From NCBI RefSeq assembly GCF_000027125.1, contig NC_017626.1: a stretch of DNA of 64,000 bases; one strand, given 5' to 3'. The translations under genes and the position numbers were made by a program. The DNA comes from Escherichia coli 042. Its GTDB lineage: Bacteria; Pseudomonadota; Gammaproteobacteria; Enterobacterales; Enterobacteriaceae. Each line of letters opens with the position of its first letter. Positions within the stretch are counted from its first letter, which is position 1. The notes below the pieces were generated by a model. It had not been told where the DNA came from, did not search any database, and worked only from the letters and a program-made list of their open reading frames with translations. Positions 3,384 to 29,521 of the stretch are shown in pieces.

Positions 3384-3746
3384 GGGGCTGATTCTGGATT
3401 CGACGGGATTTGCGAAACCCAAGGTGCATGCCGAGGGGCGGTTGGCCTCGTAAAAAGCCGCAAAAAATAGTCGCAAACGACGAAAACTACGCTTTAGCAG
3501 CTTAATAACCTGCTTAGAGCCCTCTCTCCCTAGCCTCCGCTCTTAGGACGGGGATCAAGAGAGGTCAAACCCAAAAGAGATCGCGTGGAAGCCCTGCCTG
3601 GGGTTGAAGCGTTAAAACTTAATCAGGCTAGTTTGTTAGTGGCGTGTCCGTCCGCAGCTGGCAAGCGAATGTAAAGACTGACTAAGCATGTAGTACCGAG
3701 GACGTAGGAATTTCGGACGCGGGTTCAACTCCCGCCAGCTCCACCA
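3384..3746 (+). ncRNA. ssrA: tmRNA (SsrA), 363 nt
   Basis: Starts GGGGCTGATTCTGGATTCGACGGG, contains tag reading frame gcaaacgacgaaaactacgctttagcagcttaa (ANDENYALAA*), ends GGGTTCAACTCCCGCCAGCTCCACCA. Confidence 0.97.
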
Positions 3747-3813: not shown

Positions 3814-3912
3814 CATGTCTAGCAGAGTCTACTGAGAATTGCTAGAAGCTACGCATTATGGGACCCTTATATGGACCCACCGACTGGGTCCAATAATTTG
3901 AGGGTCCAATAC

Positions 3913-5142
3913 ATGGCAAGGCAGACTAAAAAACTCACAGACACTGAAATCAAAAACACCAAACCAGCAGACAAAGAGATCAATCTCTTCGATGGTGATG
4001 GGCTACTGCTACGAATCGCTCCTTCATCAAAAGGAGGGAAGAAGAACTGGTATCTCAGATATCCAGTGCCAGTAACCAAGAAGCGCACCAAGATGAGCTT
4101 GGGTACCTACCCTCACCTCTCATTAGCAAAGGCAAGAGCTTTGCGTGATGAATACCTGTCGTTACTTGCTAATGGTGTTGACCCTCAAGTCCACATCACT
4201 GAAAAAACTAATGCTCTGAAAGATGCCACGGAGCACACGCTACAAGCAGTTTCTCGAAAGTGGTTAGATGAGAAAATTAAGACTTCTGGCATCTCTCTAG
4301 ACCATGCAGAAGATATCTGGCGCAGCCTCGAAAAAAACATCTTTTCAACTCTGGGTGATGTTCCTATCAAAGAGATCCGCCCCAAAATGCTCAAGCAGCA
4401 TCTTGACCCAATTGAGCAGCGCGGTGTTCTCGAAACTCTACGTCGTATAATTTCCAGACTGAATGAAATCTTTCGCTATGCTGCCACGGAAGAGCTTATA
4501 GAGTTCAATCCTGCCGACAATCTCGCTCAGCGTTTCAGTAAACCTAAGAAGCAAAACATGCCTGCCCTTCCACCTGATGAGCTACCACGCTTCATGGTTG
4601 CTTTATCTAACGCATCTATACGGTTAGAAACCCGTATGCTGATCGAGTGGCAATTGTTGACGTGGGTAAGGCCCGGTGAAGCCGTTCGGGCAAGATGGTG
4701 TGATATTGATGAAGAGAGCAGATTTTGGAATATCCCTTCAGAATTCATGAAAATGAAACGCCCACATAAGGTTCCATTGAGTAAAGAAGCTCTCCGCATT
4801 TTAGAAAACATGCGCCCTATCAGTGGTCATAGAGAATGGGTTTTCCCCAGCATCAAAGCTCCCCTCAGTCATATGCATGAACAAACAGCTAATGCAGCCA
4901 TAATTCGTATGGGGTTTGGCGGAGAGCTTGTTGCTCATGGTATGAGATCTATTGCAAGGACAGCAGCCGAAGAATACGGTAAGTTTAGAACGGAGGTGCT
5001 TGAATCCGCTCTGGCTCATACTAAAAAAGATGAAATAATAGCCGCGTATAACCGTTCGGAATACCTAGTTGAAAGAGAAGAACTAATGAAATGGTGGGGG
5101 GATTATGTCAGCAGCAAAAAATATAAGATGATGGCAGCATAA
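3913..5142 (+). CDS. Tyrosine recombinase / integrase, P4 family
   Basis: MARQTKKLTDTEIKNTKPADKEINLFDGDGL... with C-terminal R..HGMRS..A....Y catalytic-region pattern; similar to but diverged from K-12 IntA; ATG at 3913 preferred over ORF-track start 3871. Confidence 0.88.
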   Translation: MARQTKKLTDTEIKNTKPADKEINLFDGDGLLLRIAPSSKGGKKNWYLRYPVPVTKKRTKMSLGTYPHLSLAKARALRDEYLSLLANGVDPQVHITEKTNALKDATEHTLQAVSRKWLDEKIKTSGISLDHAEDIWRSLEKNIFSTLGDVPIKEIRPKMLKQHLDPIEQRGVLETLRRIISRLNEIFRYAATEELIEFNPADNLAQRFSKPKKQNMPALPPDELPRFMVALSNASIRLETRMLIEWQLLTWVRPGEAVRARWCDIDEESRFWNIPSEFMKMKRPHKVPLSKEALRILENMRPISGHREWVFPSIKAPLSHMHEQTANAAIIRMGFGGELVAHGMRSIARTAAEEYGKFRTEVLESALAHTKKDEIIAAYNRSEYLVEREELMKWWGDYVSSKKYKMMAA

Positions 5143-6835: not shown

Positions 6836-7801
6836 TCATTCCTCAAATCTATATAACGCGCCATCAAGATATTCTTCAACAGTATCTATACCGATCCATC
6901 TTCGGTTCAAACTCTCAGCTACAGCACCGGCAGTCATCGACCCACCAAATGGATCAAGAACTAAATCCCCTTCATCTGTAAGCATTTTAATGAAGAATTC
7001 AGGAAGCTGCATAGGGAAACGCGCAGGATGAATTTTGATACCATTAGCTTTACATTTTTTTGTATAAACGTCATTAGCTGCATTATTACCCATTTTCAAT
7101 ACATCAGACGGTGTTTCATCATCAATAAAATTAGGTGGGATAGACCCTCCATTATGGGTTTTATCAAAAGATTCATTAATATTATGTCCTGATGGTCGAA
7201 CAGTAGTTTTAACACCTTTTGCTGCAAGCCGAAGCATGTCCTTGCTATAAGGACGAAGCACTTTTTTATTACTTGCTTTTGGGTGTGGCCCTTTACTAAA
7301 CCAGAAAACATACTCTACAGAATCCTTCACTCGGACTCGTTTGACTGTAACCCATTGAGCAGGTACAGGCATCTTTGCAGGGTTGTACCAGAAAGTCTCT
7401 TGCGCTAGTCTGAATCCTACTTCCTCAACTAAAGCAATAACTAACTTAAAATGATAGATAGATCTAGTTGGCTCACCGGGATTCCAAGAGCCCCCGATGT
7501 TCAAAACGAAACTGCCATCTTCTGTCAGTATCCTTTTGATTTCTTTCGCAAAATCAACAAACCACTCAACGTAGTCCTTCTGACAGACATTACCATATTC
7601 TTTCTTAAAATGAAGTGCATATGGTGGAGATGTGAAGACTAAGTTAACCGAGTTATCAGGTATTGACTTCATCACGTCTAACGAATCGGCGTGGAAGATC
7701 GAACCCAAGTTAGATTCGTAAAACGGTTCAAACCCGTTGACTAACTTTGTAGTTGAATTTTTCTCTTTTGATGAAAAGTCAAGCGTTTTTTGAATAGTCA
7801 C
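6836..7801 (-). CDS. DNA methyltransferase, beta-class amino-methyltransferase (N4-cytosine or N6-adenine)
   Basis: Motif IV TSPPY near the N-terminus and motif [11 protein letters not shown] near the C-terminus (order IV then I); no ATG upstream of the conserved N-terminal region, so start is GTG at 7801 or GTG at 7882. Confidence 0.8.
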
Positions 7802-7869
7802 AACAATAAATCTCGAAATGGGCAATCGGATTGCATTGTTGCGTACATAACACAAGGGATCAAGTACAG

Positions 7870-8559
7870 ATGAACCAACCACAGGACTTTACAGCTCTTC
7901 TTAACAGCTTAACTCCTCAAGAGCAGCAAATGCTTTTCACGCAACTTCGCGGAAGAATTCCCATCCATCCTCTTGAACAGCAATGGAATATTACAGCAGA
8001 ATTCATTTTAGAAGCCATTGCGCGAAGCCAAGATATCACGAAACGAGGCGTAAGAGGAATCATTGCAGAGCTATGTTTCGATACATATATCATAGGTGCA
8101 ATGAAACATAAGGGCTGGATACAACATCAACTTTTTGGAGATTTACCCTATGATGCACTGATTTCTCATCCTCATGTCGGGGAAATAAAAATACAAACTA
8201 AAAACCAACGACTTGAACGTGGAGTCCCAAAATACGCAAATGGACCAATGATAAAATTCAATCCATATGTCGAAGGTTGGTATGTTTGCGAAACACAGAA
8301 AACGAGGACAGGAAAAAATGCGGAAGGGTTAGATACGAGGCCATATAGATTTGGTGAGTTTGATATACTATCAGTTTGCCTCCATCCGTCATCGGGTGAT
8401 TGGACACGATTCATGTTTTGCCCTGCATATACACTAATGCCAAGAGCGACAAATCCTGAACTAATTGCTGTTTTACAACCAGTACCACCTACACGACAAG
8501 GAAATTGGACTGATAATCTTGAGGAAGCGATTGAATGGCATTTGAACCGTAATCGTTAA
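7870..8559 (+). CDS. Putative restriction endonuclease partner of the methyltransferase (PD-ExK-like motif)
   Basis: Divergent from the methyltransferase with a short shared control region; ATG at 7870 has an AAGGG ribosome-binding site; motif [18 protein letters not shown] fits D...ExK. Confidence 0.45.
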
Positions 8560-8597
8560 AAACGGGGAATATAGCCAACTATATCTATAATATTAAA

Positions 8598-8725
8598 AGG
8601 GCCTTACGGCCCTTTCGTTTTCCCTTAAAGGGAACTCTCCCTTGGAGAGAATACATATCCCCACACTTGGGGCAAATCAATCAGCCCATTGGGCTGTACA
8701 CCACTCCCCATACATGGGGCAATCA
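8598..8725. repeat. Array of six consecutive GC-rich mini-hairpins (5-6 bp stems, 3-4 nt loops)
   Basis: GGGCC-TTAC-GGCCC, CCC-TTAAA-GGG, CTCTCC-CTT-GGAGAG, CCCCA-CACT-TGGGG, CAGCCC-ATT-GGGCTG, CCCCA-TACA-TGGGG; two units share the context TGGGGCAA(A)TCA. Confidence 0.6.
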
Positions 8726-9204
8726 GACACTTCCTGAAGTGAATATCCTCAAGGAACCATTATTAAATATAATATTAAATGTAGATTGTCAAATATATTT
8801 GAATATTTATTAAAAATATATTCACAACGACCAATCACAAATAAATTTAATCCCCCATAAATAATTAGAGGATCAAACCAAGTTCCTGATGCCTTATCTC
8901 TTTTATATCTCATGGTATATGTCTGAATGTCAAAACATGGTATATAACAACCAGAGAGCATTTTTATAGGCTGCTATTATCTGACACTCCTTTCCCCGTT
9001 GCTGTTTCCTATAAAAGAGCCAGAGATAGATAATAGCATTTTTATTTCTATCTTATTCACTCTGGATCGCTCGGCTCACAGCTTATTGGGGCGCTCGGAA
9101 CATCAACATAGGATAAAATACCTACCATTTAAATAAATCATAAGATTATACATGTCAAGATAAAGCATGAAATTATATATAGGTTTATCACGGCTATAGA
9201 TACT

Positions 9205-9696: not shown

Positions 9697-10149
9697 CAAA
9701 AAATGATGTTTTGGTTTTAAAAATATGATATTAGTAAGCTCAAAATAAAAACATGCAACACATACGAATGCAGTCACTAACATTAATTACCTGATACTCT
9801 CCGCGTTACTTATTTTATTGAATCAATGAAAACAATTTTACCTCTTGCTTTTTGACTCTGATTTCTGGTCTTAACCTGTGAATTGTGCAACACATAAAAG
9901 TATTTATAATTTTCACTATTTATTTTAAATTCTGCTTTCCCGCCTTACGGCGAGAGACTAATTTAACTACTTTTGCCCTTACGGGCGTTTTCTAAACACC
10001 AGAATCCAATATTATTATCCTACCTCAACCGTTTATCCGATTCCTACCTTTTTAATTTCACAGTCTGTAAAACTAGAGCTATTATTTAACTATAGAAAAA
10101 CATAAAACATTGTCGTTATTTTTAGCTCCTTTAGGAGATATAAAAATAA

Positions 10150-17097: not shown

Positions 17098-17505
17098 ATG
17101 TCTGATGCTTTAAAGATCATCAACAATATTCGTACTCTCCGTGCTCAGGCTCGTGAACTGACACTCGAAACCTTGGAAGAGATGTTAGAAAAACTCACTA
17201 TCGTTGTAGAAGAACGTCGTGAAGAAGAGGCCTCATTTCTAAAACAGCAGGAAGAGAAACAGGCCAAGCTGGAAGCATTCCGTCAGAAGTTGTTGGAAGA
17301 TGGCATAGACCCGGCAGAGTTGCTTTCAACTGTTAGCCCATCTTCTTCCAAGACAGGAGCGAAACGCGCCCCACGTCCAGCTAAGTATAAATATGTTGAT
17401 ACCGATGGTTCGGAAAAGACGTGGACAGGTCAGGGCCGAACTCCTCGTGCTATCGCTGCTGCGCTCGAAGCCGGTAAGACACTGGAAGATTTCGAGATCA
17501 AGTAA
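17098..17505 (+). CDS. H-NS family nucleoid-associated protein, island-encoded paralogue
   Basis: 135 aa; ...[23 protein letters not shown]...[25 protein letters not shown] parallels the StpA encoded at 50350-50754 in this window. Confidence 0.85.
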
Positions 17506-25692: not shown

Positions 25693-26391
25693 ATGACACA
25701 AATAGATTTTCAATCTCTTAGCAGTTTATCCCCCTTTCAGCTAACACAGTATATTGATGATCATCTTTTCACTAATGAACAGAAAGTGCAGATATTCGAA
25801 CATTATCACAGCACACATAAAGACACTACCAATATCTATTCGAGAAAAGAAAACATTAAATCTATTAAAAAAGATGTTGATTATGTCCATATGTTCACAA
25901 AAAACTTCCAGCAACTCGCAGAACTTGATATTTCCAAGAATGAGTTGAAGGTTATCGCAAGGATTTTAAACATCATGGAGTTTGGAAACTGCTTTCATAT
26001 ATCGCAAGCAAAGCTATGCCGCGACTTAGATATTAAAAAATCAAATATGTCTCTTGTCTTTAAAAAGCTCAAAAAGAAAGGGATCATTATTGATAAAGAT
26101 GGAGATCTCTTTATGAACTCCAACATATTTCTTAAGGGACAAGCGCATTCTATCAATGCCAAACAACGCCCTAATGTTAAAAAGGCACAGGGATTTAACG
26201 CTAATAATGAACCAGTATTTGATAATGTTTATACATTTAATCAAACAAATGATTCTGACAATCAACCTACAGAAGGAATGACTACATCTGAGCCACCAAA
26301 AACATCTGATAGCTGTTCTAACAAAGAAACAGATCCAGCACTGACGCTGCAGTATCCTAAAACAGAAGAGCCAGCTTATGATGATGTTTAA
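25693..26391 (+). CDS. Winged-helix DNA-binding protein, candidate Rep-like or regulator (232 aa)
   Basis: ...ISQAKLCRDLDIKKSNMSLVFKKLKKKGIIIDKDGDLFMNSNIFLKG winged-helix-like block; repeat array upstream. Confidence 0.5.
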   Translation: MTQIDFQSLSSLSPFQLTQYIDDHLFTNEQKVQIFEHYHSTHKDTTNIYSRKENIKSIKKDVDYVHMFTKNFQQLAELDISKNELKVIARILNIMEFGNCFHISQAKLCRDLDIKKSNMSLVFKKLKKKGIIIDKDGDLFMNSNIFLKGQAHSINAKQRPNVKKAQGFNANNEPVFDNVYTFNQTNDSDNQPTEGMTTSEPPKTSDSCSNKETDPALTLQYPKTEEPAYDDV

Positions 26392-26422
26392 TATATAAGC
26401 GAAGAAGCAACATAGTGACTGG

Positions 26423-26719
26423 CTACTGCCAGTCAATGAGATCCTCTGGTGATATCCTATCCTTCTCCATCAATTTGAGGATCTTTTTCATTTTTAACTT
26501 ACGTGCCTTTTTCTCACCAATCTCCTGATAGTATTCTTCCCGCCGTTCCGCTACTACCTTGCGGAACTTCTTCAAGAGTTTGTTCAATGTCTTTATATCA
26601 GTGGTAGCCGCTTCAGCTTGGATTTTTCTATACATATACATAACGTGGAATTCATCAATCATATTAAACCTCTTAGTTTTATCATTCATGTGATTTCCCT
26701 CTTTCGAGGGAATACTCAT
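26423..26719 (-). CDS. Hypothetical small protein (98 aa)
   Basis: Last gene in a co-oriented run of small genes. Confidence 0.45.
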   Translation of the reverse strand: MSIPSKEGNHMNDKTKRFNMIDEFHVMYMYRKIQAEAATTDIKTLNKLLKKFRKVVAERREEYYQEIGEKKARKLKMKKILKLMEKDRISPEDLIDWQ

Positions 26720-26731
26720 TACATCTAAATA

Positions 26732-27082
26732 TCAAATAACTGTCATTTTTAGCTTCCAGTAAATCGGATCTTCATTTTCATCCTGATTTATATTTTTTGA
26801 AACAAGTTCAATGATGTGTTCTTGATGCCAATACAAGATTGTGGCTTTTAAATCTCTTCTATTGATATCAGATACATCATTTTTGACAGAGTATTTCTTC
26901 ATCTCACGAGCAATCAAAACGTCATATGTGATGCCTGAAAGGAAACCATCATTCAAAATATCTATTGCTGTTTCAGGATGTTTTTCATAAATACCATATA
27001 TCTCATCACAGTATCCTTGTAAGATGTTAGCAACAAGTTCGTTTTTTGTTTCCTCATAACTATTCAATATAATCTCTTTCAT
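26732..27082 (-). CDS. Hypothetical small acidic protein (116 aa)
   Basis: Tightly packed ORF, Asp/Glu-rich. Confidence 0.5.
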   Translation of the reverse strand: MKEIILNSYEETKNELVANILQGYCDEIYGIYEKHPETAIDILNDGFLSGITYDVLIAREMKKYSVKNDVSDINRRDLKATILYWHQEHIIELVSKNINQDENEDPIYWKLKMTVI

Positions 27083-27121
27083 CTTTAATCCTTTTATTTT
27101 GTTAATGGTTAGTAAAAATAA

Positions 27122-27358
27122 TTAGTTGTTATAACCGATATTGATGATAACGGAGCCATATTCCAAATCTAACTCATCAACTAAATCGTTATTGACATGT
27201 CTATTTAAAGCATCAATCAAGTTCTTATCCCCTATCATTTCTTCTACTGAATACCCACTTAGAGCAACAAATACATCAAAGCTTTCTTGAATAGTATTCA
27301 TTACGTTAGGAGTTCCTTCGCACAGCATACTTACTACTACAGATATTTTATTTGTCAT
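27122..27358 (-). CDS. Hypothetical small acidic protein (78 aa)
   Basis: Tightly packed ORF, Asp/Glu-rich. Confidence 0.45.
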   Translation of the reverse strand: MTNKISVVVSMLCEGTPNVMNTIQESFDVFVALSGYSVEEMIGDKNLIDALNRHVNNDLVDELDLEYGSVIINIGYNN

Positions 27359-27410
27359 TTATATTTTCCTTTATTACTAATCTTAGCCCCTTGCGGGGCA
27401 AAATGGATTC

Positions 27411-27707
27411 TTATTTTCTGAAGCTGTCTGAATATCTAACCAACATAGCAGCAACCATTTCAAAGTTAACCTGATTAATATCACCGTTATTACCCTCTTG
27501 GGCAGTGAATATTTCAAAGTTGTTCTGAATGTGGTCAATCGCATGGATAATAAATGGACTCATAAAATCCGGGTCATCTAGATAATCATTAGCATCCCCA
27601 TCGCCATTAACTTCCATGAACATATTCCAGCTTGTGGCAAATGATCTACATGCAAGGTCATAGAACAGTTCAGTTGATTTATTAATACCTATCTTCTCTT
27701 TAAACAT
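27411..27707 (-). CDS. Hypothetical small acidic protein (98 aa)
   Basis: Asp-rich (DGDANDYLDDPDF); followed by hairpin GCCCC-TTGC-GGGGC at 27386-27399. Confidence 0.5.
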   Translation of the reverse strand: MFKEKIGINKSTELFYDLACRSFATSWNMFMEVNGDGDANDYLDDPDFMSPFIIHAIDHIQNNFEIFTAQEGNNGDINQVNFEMVAAMLVRYSDSFRK

Positions 27708-27786
27708 ATTTATATCCTCATAGTTAAATGCTTATTTAATTCATTGTGTTTTTTATTAGCCCCTTCCGGGGCCGAATACGCGGTTA

Positions 27787-28146
27787 TTAGCTCATACTAA
27801 AAAGTAATGCTTGAGTATGTACATATCTCATTTCATGCATAACTTTATCCATATCAACATAAATCAGTCTTTCTCTTTTACCTGCCTCTTCCATATGTTT
27901 ATCAAAGCGCTTTTCCAGATATTCTTTAACATGCAAAAGATATGATTCAGTTCTATTACTATCTAACATTATGGCTTCCAATACCTCATACTCTTCCTGC
28001 TCTTTATATATACGTATTCCTGTGATATAAAGATTCTTCGCCATAGCAGTAAAAACTTTAGTTGATGAGTCCTTAATGTTATTTAGTTCTTCAGTATTCA
28101 TATAGTTACTCCATATTTTTTGATATATAGCCCCCTGCATTTTCAT
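27787..28146 (-). CDS. Hypothetical protein (119 aa)
   Basis: First gene of the small-gene run; followed by hairpin GCCCC-TTCC-GGGGC at 27759-27772. Confidence 0.5.
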   Translation of the reverse strand: MKMQGAIYQKIWSNYMNTEELNNIKDSSTKVFTAMAKNLYITGIRIYKEQEEYEVLEAIMLDSNRTESYLLHVKEYLEKRFDKHMEEAGKRERLIYVDMDKVMHEMRYVHTQALLFSMS

Positions 28147-28280
28147 GCATTATTTTGAGAGCAGCTTATTTTTTCGTTTTATTATGATGATAAGTTCGAT
28201 TGTGTTTACATATGACCTCCCACGTTTATATTTTTAGTTAATAGACTAACCAGCTACCGAAACCATTATTATTTTGATTT

Positions 28281-28514
28281 TTATGCTACTTTATTACGTG
28301 ATAAAGTAATCTTTTCATCAATCCACTTATCTATATCACTCTCTAAGAATGCTATTGCTCTTTCACCAAGTTTTATTGGCGATGGGAATTCATTACGACT
28401 AATCAAACGATAAATCCACGCTTTACATAAACCAGTACGATTTAATACTTCTGGTAAACGAATAAGTCTTTTACTGTTTGATACTACATTAGTATTCATC
28501 TTTATCTCCTTCAC
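28281..28514 (-). CDS. alpA: AlpA-family phage regulatory protein (small HTH regulator/excisionase-like)
   Basis: 77 aa; KRLIRLPEVLNRTGLCKAWIYRLISRNEFPSPIKLGERAIAFLESDIDKWI fits the AlpA pattern. Confidence 0.8.
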   Translation of the reverse strand: MKEIKMNTNVVSNSKRLIRLPEVLNRTGLCKAWIYRLISRNEFPSPIKLGERAIAFLESDIDKWIDEKITLSRNKVA

Positions 28515-28654: not shown

Positions 28655-29521
28655 TTACTTTTCTTGTTCTTCTTGCTCGTCTTCGGGTAAGTAGTAGTTG
28701 ATGAAACTCCACACTTTCCAATCCCTGTCAGAGTCGTATTTAACTATAAAATCGCCTAACGATTTGATGTAGCTCTGGTTGGTCATAAAACCTACAGCCA
28801 AAGGATAATCAGTATCTTTTACCATGCCTTCACTGCGGTTATTTTCACTAATCAGATGAGGGTAAAGCAACCTCGTCAGCAGCGCTATACCAATTTTGGT
28901 GTTGTTCTTTTTCTCCCAGAACATGAGATCAAACATCGGTATAAGATTATATTTCATAACTTTTTTGATCGTACCGACCCCAAAACGATAACCTCTTTCT
29001 TCATGGGGCCTCACCTTAAGCTCCTTCTTCCATCGCGGTATCATCGTTTTCAGATGCTCAATGATGTCTTCTGTAGAAGCCTCTGAGAGATGAATTTCAA
29101 CAAACATGACATCTTTACTGATGCCCGCTTGATTAAGGTATTGCGAAAGCTGCCTTGACCTCTTAGCCTCTTCTTGCGGGCCAATAAGTCTATTCACCAT
29201 ATCAACAGCCCCAATAACATCTTTCGCACCAGCAATAGTCAGTGGATTTGCTATGTAGCTTGATGAAAGGATTTCTTCTGGCTTGTCAATTTTAGCGTCC
29301 TCATTAAAGAGGACTTGCCCGGACTGTATCTTCTGCTCATGATCATCAACAAGAGCTTTAAGTTGGGGTTTAAGCGAATCGTATTGGGTGAGCAGATTGT
29401 AAGCAAGAACACGTCTTTCTACTTCTATGTATATCTGTTCAACCGTCAGCTCGTTCAGCACATTATACTTGTCAACGTCGAACCATTTAGTCACTACCTT
29501 TACTATTTCTGTTCTCGTCAT
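28655..29521 (-). CDS. Hypothetical protein (288 aa)
   Basis: ORF; start overlaps stop of upstream gene by 4 nt. Confidence 0.5.
   Translation of the reverse strand: MTRTEIVKVVTKWFDVDKYNVLNELTVEQIYIEVERRVLAYNLLTQYDSLKPQLKALVDDHEQKIQSGQVLFNEDAKIDKPEEILSSSYIANPLTIAGAKDVIGAVDMVNRLIGPQEEAKRSRQLSQYLNQAGISKDVMFVEIHLSEASTEDIIEHLKTMIPRWKKELKVRPHEERGYRFGVGTIKKVMKYNLIPMFDLMFWEKKNNTKIGIALLTRLLYPHLISENNRSEGMVKDTDYPLAVGFMTNQSYIKSLGDFIVKYDSDRDWKVWSFINYYLPEDEQEEQEK

What the first reader, a model, noticed from the sequence alone, without database searches (positions are those of the whole stretch)
26423..28146. Cassette of five small, mostly acidic proteins separated by GCCCC-GNRA-GGGGC hairpins
Five co-oriented 78-119 aa genes are tightly packed, several being strongly Asp/Glu-rich. 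Two intergenic gaps carry nearly identical hairpins whose loops on the coding strand are GNRA tetraloops (plus-strand GCCCC-TTGC-GGGGC at 27386-27399 and GCCCC-TTCC-GGGGC at 27759-27772). The same hairpin type recurs at 8599, 9942 and 9975. Small acidic proteins on mobile elements are often DNA mimics or anti-defence factors, and the hairpins may be processing or stability elements.
Basis: inference. Interest (0 to 1): 0.55.

Follow-up and report, generated by a model that had tools for sequence, protein, structure and literature searches.

The report
Genomic-island regulatory operon with tetraloop hairpins
This is the conserved small-gene operon at the far end of a ROD21-like mobile island in E. 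coli: it ends in a truncated H-NS "anti-silencer", carries three related helical proteins of unknown function each followed by a conserved RNA hairpin, and gives no real evidence of DNA-mimic proteins.

Summary
The five co-oriented genes and the two GCCCC-GNAA-GGGGC hairpins exist where stated, and the hairpins are far beyond chance. The reading needs correcting.

- **Location.** The window is E. coli chromosome carrying a ~26-kb low-GC island beside ssrA. It has a P4-type integrase, a MobQ relaxase, full-length H-NS, and AlpA plus DUF6387, so it is ROD21-like (EARL).
- **The cassette.** It is the island's conserved distal operon: alpA, p104 (SEN1997 family), p98 (SEN1996 family), p78, p116, hnsT. 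It is syntenic in 27 Enterobacterales loci.
- **The genes.** The last gene is a basic (pI 9.6) truncated H-NS, an H-NST-type antagonist. p104, p98 and p116 are divergent paralogues with an orphan helical-bundle fold. p78 is an orphan.
- **Acidity.** Only p98 and p78 are consistently acidic (net about -9, 15-17% Asp+Glu). The match to Ocr is no better than to unrelated helical proteins.
- **Hairpins.** A third one (UUCCCUC-GAAA-GAGGGAA) was missed, as was a 5'-leader hairpin. Across relatives the loops read G-N-A-A on the coding strand, with N taking all four bases. Stems tolerate C-to-U (G·U) changes. No U-tract follows. Each hairpin sits just after a paralogue's stop codon.

They are most likely mRNA 3'-end protection or processing elements, not terminators. 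This is a new member of a known kind, of modest interest.

The parts
28281..28499 (-). alpA-family recombination directionality factor / regulator (72 aa), first gene of the module
   Evidence: PHROG excisionase families at E 3e-11. RefSeq annotates it as an HTH regulator. PF05930 Phage_AlpA is recorded on the orthologues. It corresponds by position to SEN1998 of ROD21 (PMC3198454 gene table; PMC8844411).
28181..28208 (-). sigma-70-like promoter candidate in the 180-nt alpA-p104 spacer (TAAACA-16-CATAAT)
   Evidence: Consensus scan, 9 of 12 matches. This is weak evidence. In Pectobacterium-type loci the spacer is absent and alpA abuts p104.
28136..28149 (-). 5'-leader hairpin UGCAU-GAAA-AUGCA
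   Evidence: Folding energy -4.9 kcal/mol. Conserved in the loci that have the spacer. The variants GUGUA and AUGUA keep pairing through G·U only on the sense strand.
27787..28101 (-). p104 (SEN1997 family), helical paralogue, near-neutral
   Evidence: 54 homologues, almost all 104 aa and all annotated hypothetical. Matches phrog_19730 at E 4e-3. hhalign to the p98 family gives E 3.7e-4 over 82 collinear columns. Median pI is 6.06.
27754..27778 (-). hairpin Ha: UAUU-C-GGCCCC-GGAA-GGGGCU-AAUA, 11-14 nt after the p104 stop
   Evidence: Folding energy -12.9 kcal/mol. Loops in relatives are GGAA, GUAA, GAAA, GCAA and GAAAA. No U-tract follows.
27411..27707 (-). p98 (SEN1996 family), acidic three/four-helix bundle
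   Evidence: 224 homologues, the listed best 120 at 79% identity or more, all annotated hypothetical. Only 20 clusters among 1.84 billion representatives. AlphaFold2 pLDDT 89.8, pTM 0.81. Median pI 4.41.
27386..27399 (-). hairpin Hb: GCCCC-GCAA-GGGGC, 11 nt after the p98 stop
   Evidence: Folding energy -12.3 kcal/mol, z -2.8. Present in all 27 loci, whether the next gene is p78, p116 or hnsT.
27122..27358 (-). p78, acidic orphan protein not related to the paralogue family
   Evidence: No Pfam, PDB, PHROG or NCBIfam match. hhalign to p98 gives probability 5.6%. Median pI 4.05.
26732..27082 (-). p116, helical-bundle paralogue (ECA2914 family)
   Evidence: Folding energy -12.3 kcal/mol, z -3.25. 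The stem is invariant in 19 loci. Variant loops are GUACA, GUGCA and AAAA.
26423..26662 (-). hnsT: truncated H-NS (79 aa, pI 9.6), oligomerisation domain only
   Evidence: NCBIfam StpA and H-NS match the N-terminal 77 residues at E 5e-9 and 2e-7. Residues 5-77 align to H-NS 8-80 of PDB 3NR7 at E 8.5e-6. RefSeq calls it 'H-NS family histone-like protein'. PF22470 Histone_HNS_N is recorded on the orthologues.
26416..26435 (-). terminal hairpin UGACUGGC-AGUA-GCCAGUCA overlapping the hnsT stop; probable weak operon-end terminator
   Evidence: -13.9 kcal/mol. The tail CUAUGUUGCUUCUUCGCUU is U-rich but below the scan threshold. Conserved in L004, L006 and L011.

Best explanation
The region is the distal regulatory operon of a ROD21-like (EARL-type) integrative mobilisable island inserted next to ssrA. 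It is transcribed on the minus strand in the order alpA (recombination directionality factor), p104, p98, p78, p116, hnsT.

**hnsT.** It encodes only the H-NS oligomerisation domain. By analogy with H-NST of EPEC, it is inferred to heteromerise with host H-NS/StpA and so relieve silencing of this AT-rich island when the operon is on.

**The small proteins.** p104, p98 and p116 are divergent tandem paralogues with an island-specific helical-bundle fold. Their function is unknown. p78 is an unrelated acidic orphan.

**The hairpins.** Each paralogue carries a stable stem-loop of -12 to -13 kcal/mol, capped by a GNAA tetraloop, 10-20 nt after its stop codon. These are RNA elements on the sense strand and are not intrinsic terminators. 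The proposed mechanism is inferred and not shown. The polycistronic mRNA would be cut in the A/U-rich single-stranded stretch after each hairpin. The hairpin would then block 3'-to-5' exonucleases. Upstream cistrons would outlast downstream ones, which would set the relative doses of the small proteins and of H-NST.
For: **Island identity**
- tmRNA at 3384-3746.
- Integrase domain model NF007246 at 442 bits against a cut-off of 434, and full-length H-NS at E 1e-53.
- MobQ, TraD, TraW, DotA/TraY, DUF6387 and an HTH regulator (the AlpA-family gene; AlpA by name in related records) in RefSeq annotation.
- GC content of 33-42% across most of the island.

**Synteny and literature**
- The alpA-to-hnsT module is syntenic in Pectobacterium, Klebsiella, Salmonella and 23 further species.
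- ROD21 has SEN1996 (98 aa), SEN1997 and SEN1998 (AlpA) in this order (PMC3198454).
- The EARL family and its truncated H-NS are described in PMC6035254 and PMC7074111.

**hnsT**
-.

**Real coding genes**
- Third-codon-position differences are 2-3 times more frequent than first- or second-position differences in all five genes.

**Paralogy**
- Both p98 and p104 hit phrog_19730.
- hhalign gives E 3.7e-4.
- The 105-aa variant matches p98 at E 4.7e-7 and p116 at E 3e-3.
- Foldseek finds only uncharacterised Enterobacterales proteins of 68-131 aa.

**Hairpins**
- Observed 2 against 0.02 expected.
- The loop begins with G in 51 of 54 cases and ends in AA in 54 of 54. N is A, C, G or U in both Ha and Hb.
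- 95-97% of stem cells are paired.
- One-sided stem changes are mainly C-to-U, giving G·U on the sense strand. By my count there are about 10 of these, against one G-to-A.
- Density is 0.77 per kb on the sense strand in the cassette, 0.11 per kb outside it, and 0.06 per kb on the antisense strand.
- None has a terminator-like U-tract.
- The hairpins persist when the neighbouring genes are permuted or replaced.
Against: - No transcript data were available. Operon structure, processing and half-lives are all inferred.
- Formal covariation is nil. No stem pair shows a change on both sides, and shuffles score as high as the observed alignment. The support therefore comes from conservation pattern and strand asymmetry, not from compensatory mutations.
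- About 8 stem cells are plain mismatches, for example in L015-L017.
- The intergenic regions are themselves 80-90% conserved, so conservation alone is weak evidence.
- The anti-silencing role of hnsT rests on homology to H-NST of EPEC.
- The island sits at ssrA, not at an Asn-tRNA as in described EARL islands, and I found no attR repeat.
- The function of p104, p98, p78 and p116 remains unknown.
Confidence: 0.55

Rival explanations
1. The small acidic proteins are DNA mimics or other anti-defence factors (Ocr/ArdA-like) that protect the island DNA from restriction on entering a new host.
For: - p98 and p78 are consistently acidic, with median pI 4.4 and 4.05 and net charge about -9.
- If transfer starts at the presumed oriT between traD and mobQ and the relaxase gene enters last, the cassette lies co-oriented on the leading side of the excised circle, about 8-10 kb from oriT. 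An orphan adenine methyltransferase lies on the same side. This is inference.
Against: - Asp+Glu is 15-18%, against roughly 25-30% in Ocr and ArdA (the latter figure is from my own knowledge).
- There is no Pfam ArdA/Ocr or PADLOC hit.
- p104 and p116 are not consistently acidic, and the fifth protein is basic.
- p98 is absent from 50,697 phage records and found on one plasmid only.
Confidence: 0.1
2. The GNAA hairpins are protein-recognition sites rather than passive decay barriers. They could be boxB/nut-like sites for a processive antiterminator (AlpA-family proteins include one), or operators bound by the adjacent paralogues for autoregulation.
For: - The stem and loop closely resemble lambda boxB (GCCCU-GAAAA-AGGGC, from my own knowledge). 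L011 has GGCCCC-GAAAA-GGGGC and L004 has GCCCU-GAAA-GGGGC.
- G and AA are strictly retained in the loop, and CUAA is conserved immediately after the stem.
- One hairpin accompanies each paralogue.
Against: - No boxA-like element is evident upstream.
- No arginine-rich-motif protein is encoded in the locus (sequences).
- There are no terminators for an antiterminator to override.
- The free N position and the GNAA pattern are equally explained by tetraloop stability alone.
Confidence: 0.12
3. The palindromes act at the DNA level. They could be hairpins in the transferred single strand during conjugation, or short homology anchors at which gene modules are exchanged.
For: - Homology breakpoints between variant cassettes fall right at the hairpins. 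p104 is replaced by the 105-aa gene just upstream of Ha. After Hb, p78, p116 or hnsT may follow.
- The island is mobilisable, with a MobQ relaxase.
Against: - The centre of the palindrome is asymmetric and strand-specific (G-N-A-A against T-T-N-C).
- Tolerated stem changes give G·U on the sense strand, which would be A·C mismatches on the other strand.
- There are no integron attC core sites (direct reading).
- Persistence at the junctions is also expected if each gene simply keeps its own 3' hairpin.
Confidence: 0.08
4. The hairpins are intrinsic terminators or attenuators that step down transcription along the operon.
For: - The stems are GC-rich at -12 to -13 kcal/mol and lie in intercistronic positions.
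- The 8596-8615 hairpin elsewhere in the island does look like a terminator.
Against: - None of Ha, Hb or Hc passes the terminator scan.
- In all 27 loci the 8 nt after the stem are A-rich, for example UAAUAAAA and UAACCAAA.
- No U-tract follows the hairpins on the other strand either: there the U-run precedes the hairpin and an A-run or mixed sequence follows it.
Confidence: 0.06

Closest known systems
[quoted passage not shown]
   Same: - P4-type integrase beside the insertion site.
- AlpA-family RDF followed by a DUF6387 gene at the far end.
- MobQ relaxase and a TraD-like gene.
- Full-length and truncated H-NS homologues.
- Low GC content and about 26 kb in size.
- A run of small hypothetical genes after alpA. 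SEN1996 and SEN1997 are the p98 and p104 families.
   Different: - This island is inserted next to ssrA (tmRNA) rather than an Asn-tRNA gene.
- No type IV pilin genes were seen in the stretch examined.
- The small genes and their hairpins have not been described or studied in the papers I could search.
H-NST of EPEC/UPEC (Williamson & Free 2005, as summarised in PMC7074111)
   Same: - About 80 aa.
- Homologous to the H-NS N-terminal oligomerisation domain only.
- No DNA-binding domain.
- Island-encoded.
- A16 and L30 are present at the same numbering.
   Different: - Position 60 is K, not R.
- Antagonism of H-NS has not been tested for this protein.
Stable tetraloop hairpins in intercistronic regions that protect upstream mRNA (T4 C(UUCG)G hairpins, REP in malE-malF, the pap and puf operons; from my own knowledge)
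   Same: - Short GC stem with an extra-stable tetraloop.
- Placed just after a stop codon.
- No U-tract, and followed by A/U-rich single-stranded RNA.
   Different: - The loop class here is GNAA.
- One hairpin accompanies each member of a paralogous gene family.
- The effect on stability is untested.
Lambda nut boxB
   Same: A 5-bp GCCC(U/C) stem with a GNRA-type loop. One relative has the pentaloop GAAAA.
   Different: - The loop is a tetraloop in nearly all copies.
- There is no boxA.
- There is no N-like protein.
- There are no downstream terminators.
Ocr / ArdA DNA-mimic anti-restriction proteins
   Same: Small, helical, acidic, and encoded on a mobile element.
   Different: - Charge density is about half that of Ocr or ArdA.
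- There is no sequence or profile match.
- The structural match is in the noise range for helical bundles.

Membership tests
EARL (ROD21-like) genomic island | P4-related tyrosine integrase immediately downstream of the insertion site | tested here: met
   ORF 3871-5142 matches NF007246 at 442 bits against a cut-off of 434. It starts 125 nt after the tmRNA gene.
EARL (ROD21-like) genomic island | [quoted passage not shown] | tested here: met
   The RDF lies at 28281-28499 and DUF6387 at 28655-29521. The same pair occurs in related loci.
EARL (ROD21-like) genomic island | Integration into an Asn-tRNA gene, with flanking direct repeats | tested here: not met
   The island abuts ssrA. No repeat of the ssrA 3' end was found at up to 3 mismatches, and none among the reported direct-repeat families of the right-hand region.
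EARL (ROD21-like) genomic island | MobQ-type relaxase with a TraD-like gene, and H-NS homologues | tested here: met
   RefSeq annotation of the identical record. H-NS is at 17098-17505 with E 1e-53.
H-NST (truncated H-NS antagonist) | [quoted passage not shown] | tested here: met
   The protein is 79 aa. It aligns to H-NS residues 8-80 and ends there.
H-NST (truncated H-NS antagonist) | Residues A16, L30 and R60 needed for H-NST(EPEC) activity (PMC7074111) | tested here: inconclusive
   A16 and L30 are present by direct numbering and position 60 is K (sequence). It was not aligned to the EPEC protein itself.
H-NST (truncated H-NS antagonist) | Binds H-NS and derepresses H-NS-silenced promoters | not testable with these tools
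   This needs two-hybrid or pull-down assays and proU/bgl reporter assays.
DNA-mimic anti-restriction proteins (Ocr, ArdA) | Sequence or profile membership (Pfam ArdA or Ocr families) | tested here: not met
   No Pfam match, even at E of 10 or less, for p116, p78, p98 or p104. No PADLOC or PHROG functional hit.
DNA-mimic anti-restriction proteins (Ocr, ArdA) | Very high density of surface carboxylates (about a quarter or more Asp+Glu, with a large net negative charge) | tested here: not met
   Asp+Glu is 15-18% and net charge is -2 to -9.
DNA-mimic anti-restriction proteins (Ocr, ArdA) | Fold match to a known mimic that stands out from background | tested here: not met
Intrinsic (Rho-independent) terminator | GC-rich hairpin | tested here: met
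Intrinsic (Rho-independent) terminator | U-rich tract immediately 3' of the hairpin | tested here: not met
   None of the three is reported by the scan. The tails are A-rich in all loci.
GNRA-tetraloop RNA hairpin | Four-base loop G-N-R-A closed by a Watson-Crick pair, with N free to vary | tested here: met
   G in 51 of 54 loops and AA in 54 of 54. N takes all four bases. The closing pair is C-G or U·G.
GNRA-tetraloop RNA hairpin | Stem supported by compensatory base changes | tested here: not met
   No pair has changes on both sides, and the shuffle control is uninformative. Only one-sided C-to-U changes were seen.
Lambda-type nut site | boxB hairpin preceded by boxA, with a cognate arginine-rich N protein | tested here: not met
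   The hairpin is boxB-like. No boxA-like sequence and no ARM protein were seen by direct reading.
Integron gene cassette (ORF + attC) | Imperfect 57-141-bp attC palindrome with RYYYAAC / GTTRRRY core sites | tested here: not met
   The hairpins are 14-25 nt and no core sites flank them (direct reading).

The most novel reading that the evidence does not exclude
The helical paralogues (p104/p105, p98, p116) and their private GNAA hairpins could form a dedicated RNA-protein or host-takeover system. It would be switched on together with the excision factor AlpA and with H-NST. Two examples:

- The paralogues are a new family of modulators of nucleoid-associated or defence proteins, whose dosage is set by the hairpins.
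- The hairpins are specific binding sites for these proteins or for an AlpA-type antiterminator.

The family is confined to Enterobacterales islands, is under strong purifying selection, and has no characterised relative by sequence or fold.
Probability: 0.12. Interest if true: 0.65.

Novelty: new member of a known kind. Interest (0 to 1): 0.33.

Why it matters
ROD21-like islands sit in major pathogens, including Salmonella Enteritidis, K. pneumoniae ST258, EPEC and Pectobacterium. Their excision affects virulence.

The genes next to the excision factor are conserved at 80-90% identity across genera but have never been studied. Three points follow from this work:

- Three of them belong to one paralogous family.
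- Each of those three carries a conserved RNA hairpin.
- The operon ends in an H-NS antagonist.

Together these give a concrete and testable picture of how such an island might escape silencing and tune its early genes. The work also removes an attractive but unsupported 'DNA mimic' label.

Tried and rejected
- **Function from sequence.** Pfam, NCBIfam, PHROGs, PADLOC and PDB sequence searches on all four unknown proteins gave no functional hit.
- **Deeper homology.** The exhaustive representative search for p98 found only 20 clusters and no annotated relative.
- **Fold searches.**
  - AFDB50 returned only uncharacterised Enterobacterales proteins.
- **RNA families.** Rfam has no family for the hairpins or for the 8.6-kb structured element.
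- **Covariation.** The formal test on Ha and Hb gave no compensatory pairs.
- **Island boundary.** The search for attR, a repeat of the ssrA 3' end, found nothing.
- **Other replicons.** Searches for p98 gave no phage and one plasmid, which carries an EARL-like segment.
- **Literature.** Searches on SEN1996/SEN1997, c2414/c2415 and ECA2914-2917 found only gene tables.
- **Loop motifs.** CsrA (GGA in the loop) was considered and rejected because GGAA is only one of four loop variants.
- **Cassette type.** Integron attC was rejected on size and on the lack of core sites.
Full report
**1. What is in the sequence**

The minus strand between 26423 and 28146 carries five consecutive ORFs. Exact copies of GCCCC-N4-GGGGC lie at 27386-27399 and 27759-27772. 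That is 2 matches against 0.02 expected, and none of 100 shuffles gave two.

RefSeq annotation of an identical E. coli record, and the lengths of the homologues, give 79 aa (26423-26662) and 104 aa (27787-28101).

Trimming the first ORF uncovers a third hairpin of the same kind. It is TTCCCTC-TTTC-GAGGGAA at 26695-26712, which reads GAAA on the coding strand. The start of the supposed 119-aa ORF lies inside a small 5'-leader hairpin, UGCAU-GAAA-AUGCA, at 28136-28149. An 8-bp hairpin at 26416-26435 overlaps the stop codon of the last gene.

Folding energies are -12.9, -12.3 and -12.3 kcal/mol for the three intercistronic hairpins. They are -4.9 for the leader hairpin and -13.9 for the terminal one.

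**2. Acidity**

Asp+Glu is 15-18% in all five proteins. The pI values are 9.6 (79 aa), 4.8 (116 aa), 4.05 (78 aa), 4.3 (98 aa) and 5.6 (104 aa).

| Protein | Median pI across 16-27 orthologues | Consistently acidic? |
|---|---|---|
| p98 | 4.41 | yes |
| p78 | 4.05 | yes |
| p116 | 5.24 (ranges up to 9.35) | no |
| p104 | 6.06 | no |
| hnsT | 9.4 | no (basic) |

'Mostly, strongly acidic' is therefore an overstatement.

**3. Context**

- The window is E. coli chromosome, 100% identical over the cassette to NZ_OZ547150.
- A tmRNA gene lies at 3384-3746.
- A P4-type integrase follows at 3871-5142.
- A stretch of mostly 33-42% GC then runs to about 30 kb.
- That stretch holds an adenine methyltransferase, a TraD-like gene, a MobQ relaxase, TraW, DotA/TraY, a full-length H-NS paralogue and, at the far end, an HTH regulator (AlpA-family) plus DUF6387.

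This is the gene set that defines the ROD21-like (EARL) islands (PMC6035254, PMC10763509). Described members sit at Asn-tRNA genes, whereas this one sits at ssrA. I found no attR repeat.

In the ROD21 gene table, SEN1996 (297 nt), SEN1997, SEN1998 (AlpA) and SEN1999 correspond in order and size to p98, p104, alpA and DUF6387. The papers I could search do not study the small genes.

**4. The cassette is a conserved module**

About 9% of complete E. coli genomes (509 of 5426) carry it at 80-90% identity. The order alpA, p104, p98, p78, p116, hnsT recurs in Pectobacterium, Klebsiella and Salmonella. It also recurs in 23 further species representatives.

All five genes show a 2-3-fold excess of third-position differences, as expected of real coding sequences.

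In Pectobacterium-type loci alpA ends about 30 nt before p104. This argues for one operon. In the window's type a 180-nt spacer intervenes, holding a weak promoter-like site and the leader hairpin.

**5. The proteins**

*hnsT.* The 79-aa protein is a truncated H-NS. It matches the first 77 positions of the NCBIfam StpA and H-NS models at E 5e-9 and 2e-7. It aligns to residues 8-80 of the H-NS oligomerisation domain (PDB 3NR7) at E 8.5e-6 and stops before the DNA-binding domain.

Truncated H-NS proteins of EARL islands are homologues of H-NST(EPEC). That protein heteromerises with H-NS and relieves silencing (PMC7074111). A16 and L30 are present here and position 60 is K.

*The other four.* They have no Pfam, NCBIfam, PADLOC or PDB sequence match.

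- **p98:** 224 close homologues, the listed ones all 'hypothetical'. Only 20 clusters exist among 1.84 billion representatives.
- **Paralogy:**
  - p98 and p104 both hit phrog_19730, a family of unknown function.
  - Their profiles align collinearly over 82 columns at E 3.7e-4, probability 36%.
  - A 105-aa variant that replaces p104 in some islands matches p98 at E 4.7e-7 and p116 at E 3e-3.
- **Models:**
  - AlphaFold2 gives confident helical bundles, with pLDDT 89.8 for p98 and 83.8 for p116.
- **Foldseek:** against AFDB50 it finds only uncharacterised Enterobacterales proteins of 68-131 aa.

I conclude that p104/p105, p98 and p116 are divergent paralogues of one island-specific orphan family. 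p78 is unrelated, with hhalign probability 5.6%.

**6. DNA mimicry**

**7. The hairpins across relatives**

*Loops.*
- Ha (after p104/p105) has loops GGAA, GUAA, GAAA, GCAA and once GAAAA.
- Hb (after p98) has GCAA, GAAA, GUAA, GGAA and ACAA.
- Taking both together, position 1 is G in 51 of 54 loops and positions 3-4 are AA in 54 of 54. Position 2 takes all four bases.

This is the signature of a GNRA tetraloop read on the coding strand. The opposite strand would read UUNC, which is not a recognised stable loop.

*Stems.*
- Stems are 95-97% paired.
- Formal covariation is nil, with no double changes, and the shuffle control is uninformative.
- The one-sided changes are mainly C-to-U in the 5' arm, or the equivalent in the leader hairpin. 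These keep G·U pairs on the sense strand only. I count about 10 of these against one G-to-A. The events are not phylogenetically independent.

*Tails and density.*
- None of the hairpins is followed by a U-tract. The tails are A-rich in every locus, and the terminator scan does not report them.
- GNAA hairpins occur at 0.77 per kb on the sense strand in the cassette. The figure is 0.11 per kb outside it and 0.06 per kb on the antisense strand.

**8. Hairpins and gene shuffling**

In a divergent clade (L023-L030) the order is alpA, p105, Ha, p78, p98, Hb, hnsT. In L029, Hb is followed by p116. In L019-L022, p105 replaces p104 and homology resumes a few bases before Ha.

Each member of the paralogue family thus keeps a GNAA hairpin just after its stop codon, whatever gene follows. 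alpA and p78 have no GNAA hairpin of their own; in the divergent clade only a weak, non-GNRA stem-loop follows p78. The simplest history is tandem duplication of a unit made of gene plus 3' hairpin. The identical stems of Ha and Hb, and the shared CUAA after each, fit this.

**9. Mechanism proposed**

*Shown:*
- Conserved sense-strand stem-loops with extra-stable tetraloops.
- Intercistronic placement, non-terminator tails, and an A/U-rich single strand downstream.

*Inferred, by analogy with T4 C(UUCG)G hairpins, REP in malEF and the pap and puf operons (my own knowledge):*
- Endonucleolytic cleavage in the A/U-rich spacer leaves upstream RNAs ending in the hairpin.
- The hairpin then blocks 3' exonucleases.
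- This sets a gradient of expression along alpA-hnsT.
- H-NST at the end would counter H-NS silencing of the AT-rich island when the operon is active.

The function of the paralogues remains unknown.

**10. Rivals**

The rivals are DNA mimics, boxB-like protein sites, DNA-level roles and terminators. Each is listed in the Rival explanations section with its evidence. None has positive support beyond resemblance.

**11. Verdict**

The object is the uncharacterised but widely conserved distal operon of a known island family. It is a new member of a known kind and of modest interest. The paralogue-plus-hairpin architecture is a small new detail.

Noticed in passing
window 8590-8760, minus strand: About 170 nt of five or six consecutive GC-rich hairpins, ending in AAAGGGCC-GUAA-GGCCCUUUU followed by UAAUAUU, which looks like a terminator on the minus strand. 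RNAfold gives -69.9 kcal/mol, z -4.78. There is no Rfam match and no RefSeq annotation. It lies 450-600 nt downstream of the TraD-like gene. It is conserved at about 87% identity in other E. coli islands. It is a candidate structured sRNA or 3' UTR.
   Followed up: partly
window 9938-9955 and 9975-9988: Two small GUAA-loop hairpins (minus-strand reading) lie in the divergent intergenic region between the TraD-like gene and mobQ. This is the expected position of oriT or of the traD leader. No similarity to the RSF1010 nick region was evident by eye.
   Followed up: no
window 27564-27602 (p98 residues 36-48): DGDANDYLDDPDF fits the EF-hand calcium-loop pattern (PROSITE PS00018, as I recall it). 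In the model it sits in and around the linker between the two long helices. It is present in 96 of 120 close orthologues and absent in distant relatives. Pfam EF-hand models do not hit. Much of p98's acidity comes from this loop.
   Followed up: partly
L023-L030, L019-L022, L029 (related loci): Gene order in the cassette is permuted or genes are replaced: a 105-aa paralogue stands in for p104, p78 lies before p98, and hnsT or p116 lies directly after p98. The hairpins stay at the junctions, and homology breakpoints fall within a few bases of the stems.
   Followed up: partly
window 3384-3746 and about 29900-30300: The island abuts ssrA rather than an Asn-tRNA gene, and no copy of the ssrA 3' end marks the right boundary. 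The right end therefore remains undefined.
   Followed up: partly
window 6836-7882, minus strand: An orphan adenine DNA methyltransferase (NCBIfam E 8e-25) lies about 2 kb from the presumed oriT. It is co-oriented with traD and with the cassette in the excised circle. This arrangement recalls plasmid leading regions, though that is inference only.
   Followed up: no
L031 (K. pneumoniae plasmid pINF177.2) 3623-5802 and 5268-5421: An IncFIB/IncHI1B plasmid carries an EARL-like segment: DUF6387, AlpA, five small ORFs, then H-NS. The hairpin before its p98-like gene is AGCCCCA-CAUA-UGGGGCU. A long inverted repeat of about 130 nt (-43.6 kcal/mol) follows that gene.
   Followed up: partly
window 30281-34984, minus strand: A 1567-aa ORF at about 50% GC lies just outside the island and is full of degenerate internal repeats, including 12-nt tandem units at 31214-31315. 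It was not identified here.
   Followed up: no
window 25693-26391, plus strand: A 232-aa gene convergent with the cassette has weak PHROG hits to replication-initiation O-like and HTH proteins (E 2e-3). It may correspond to the RepL/wHTH-like gene (SEN1990) discussed for ROD21.
   Followed up: no
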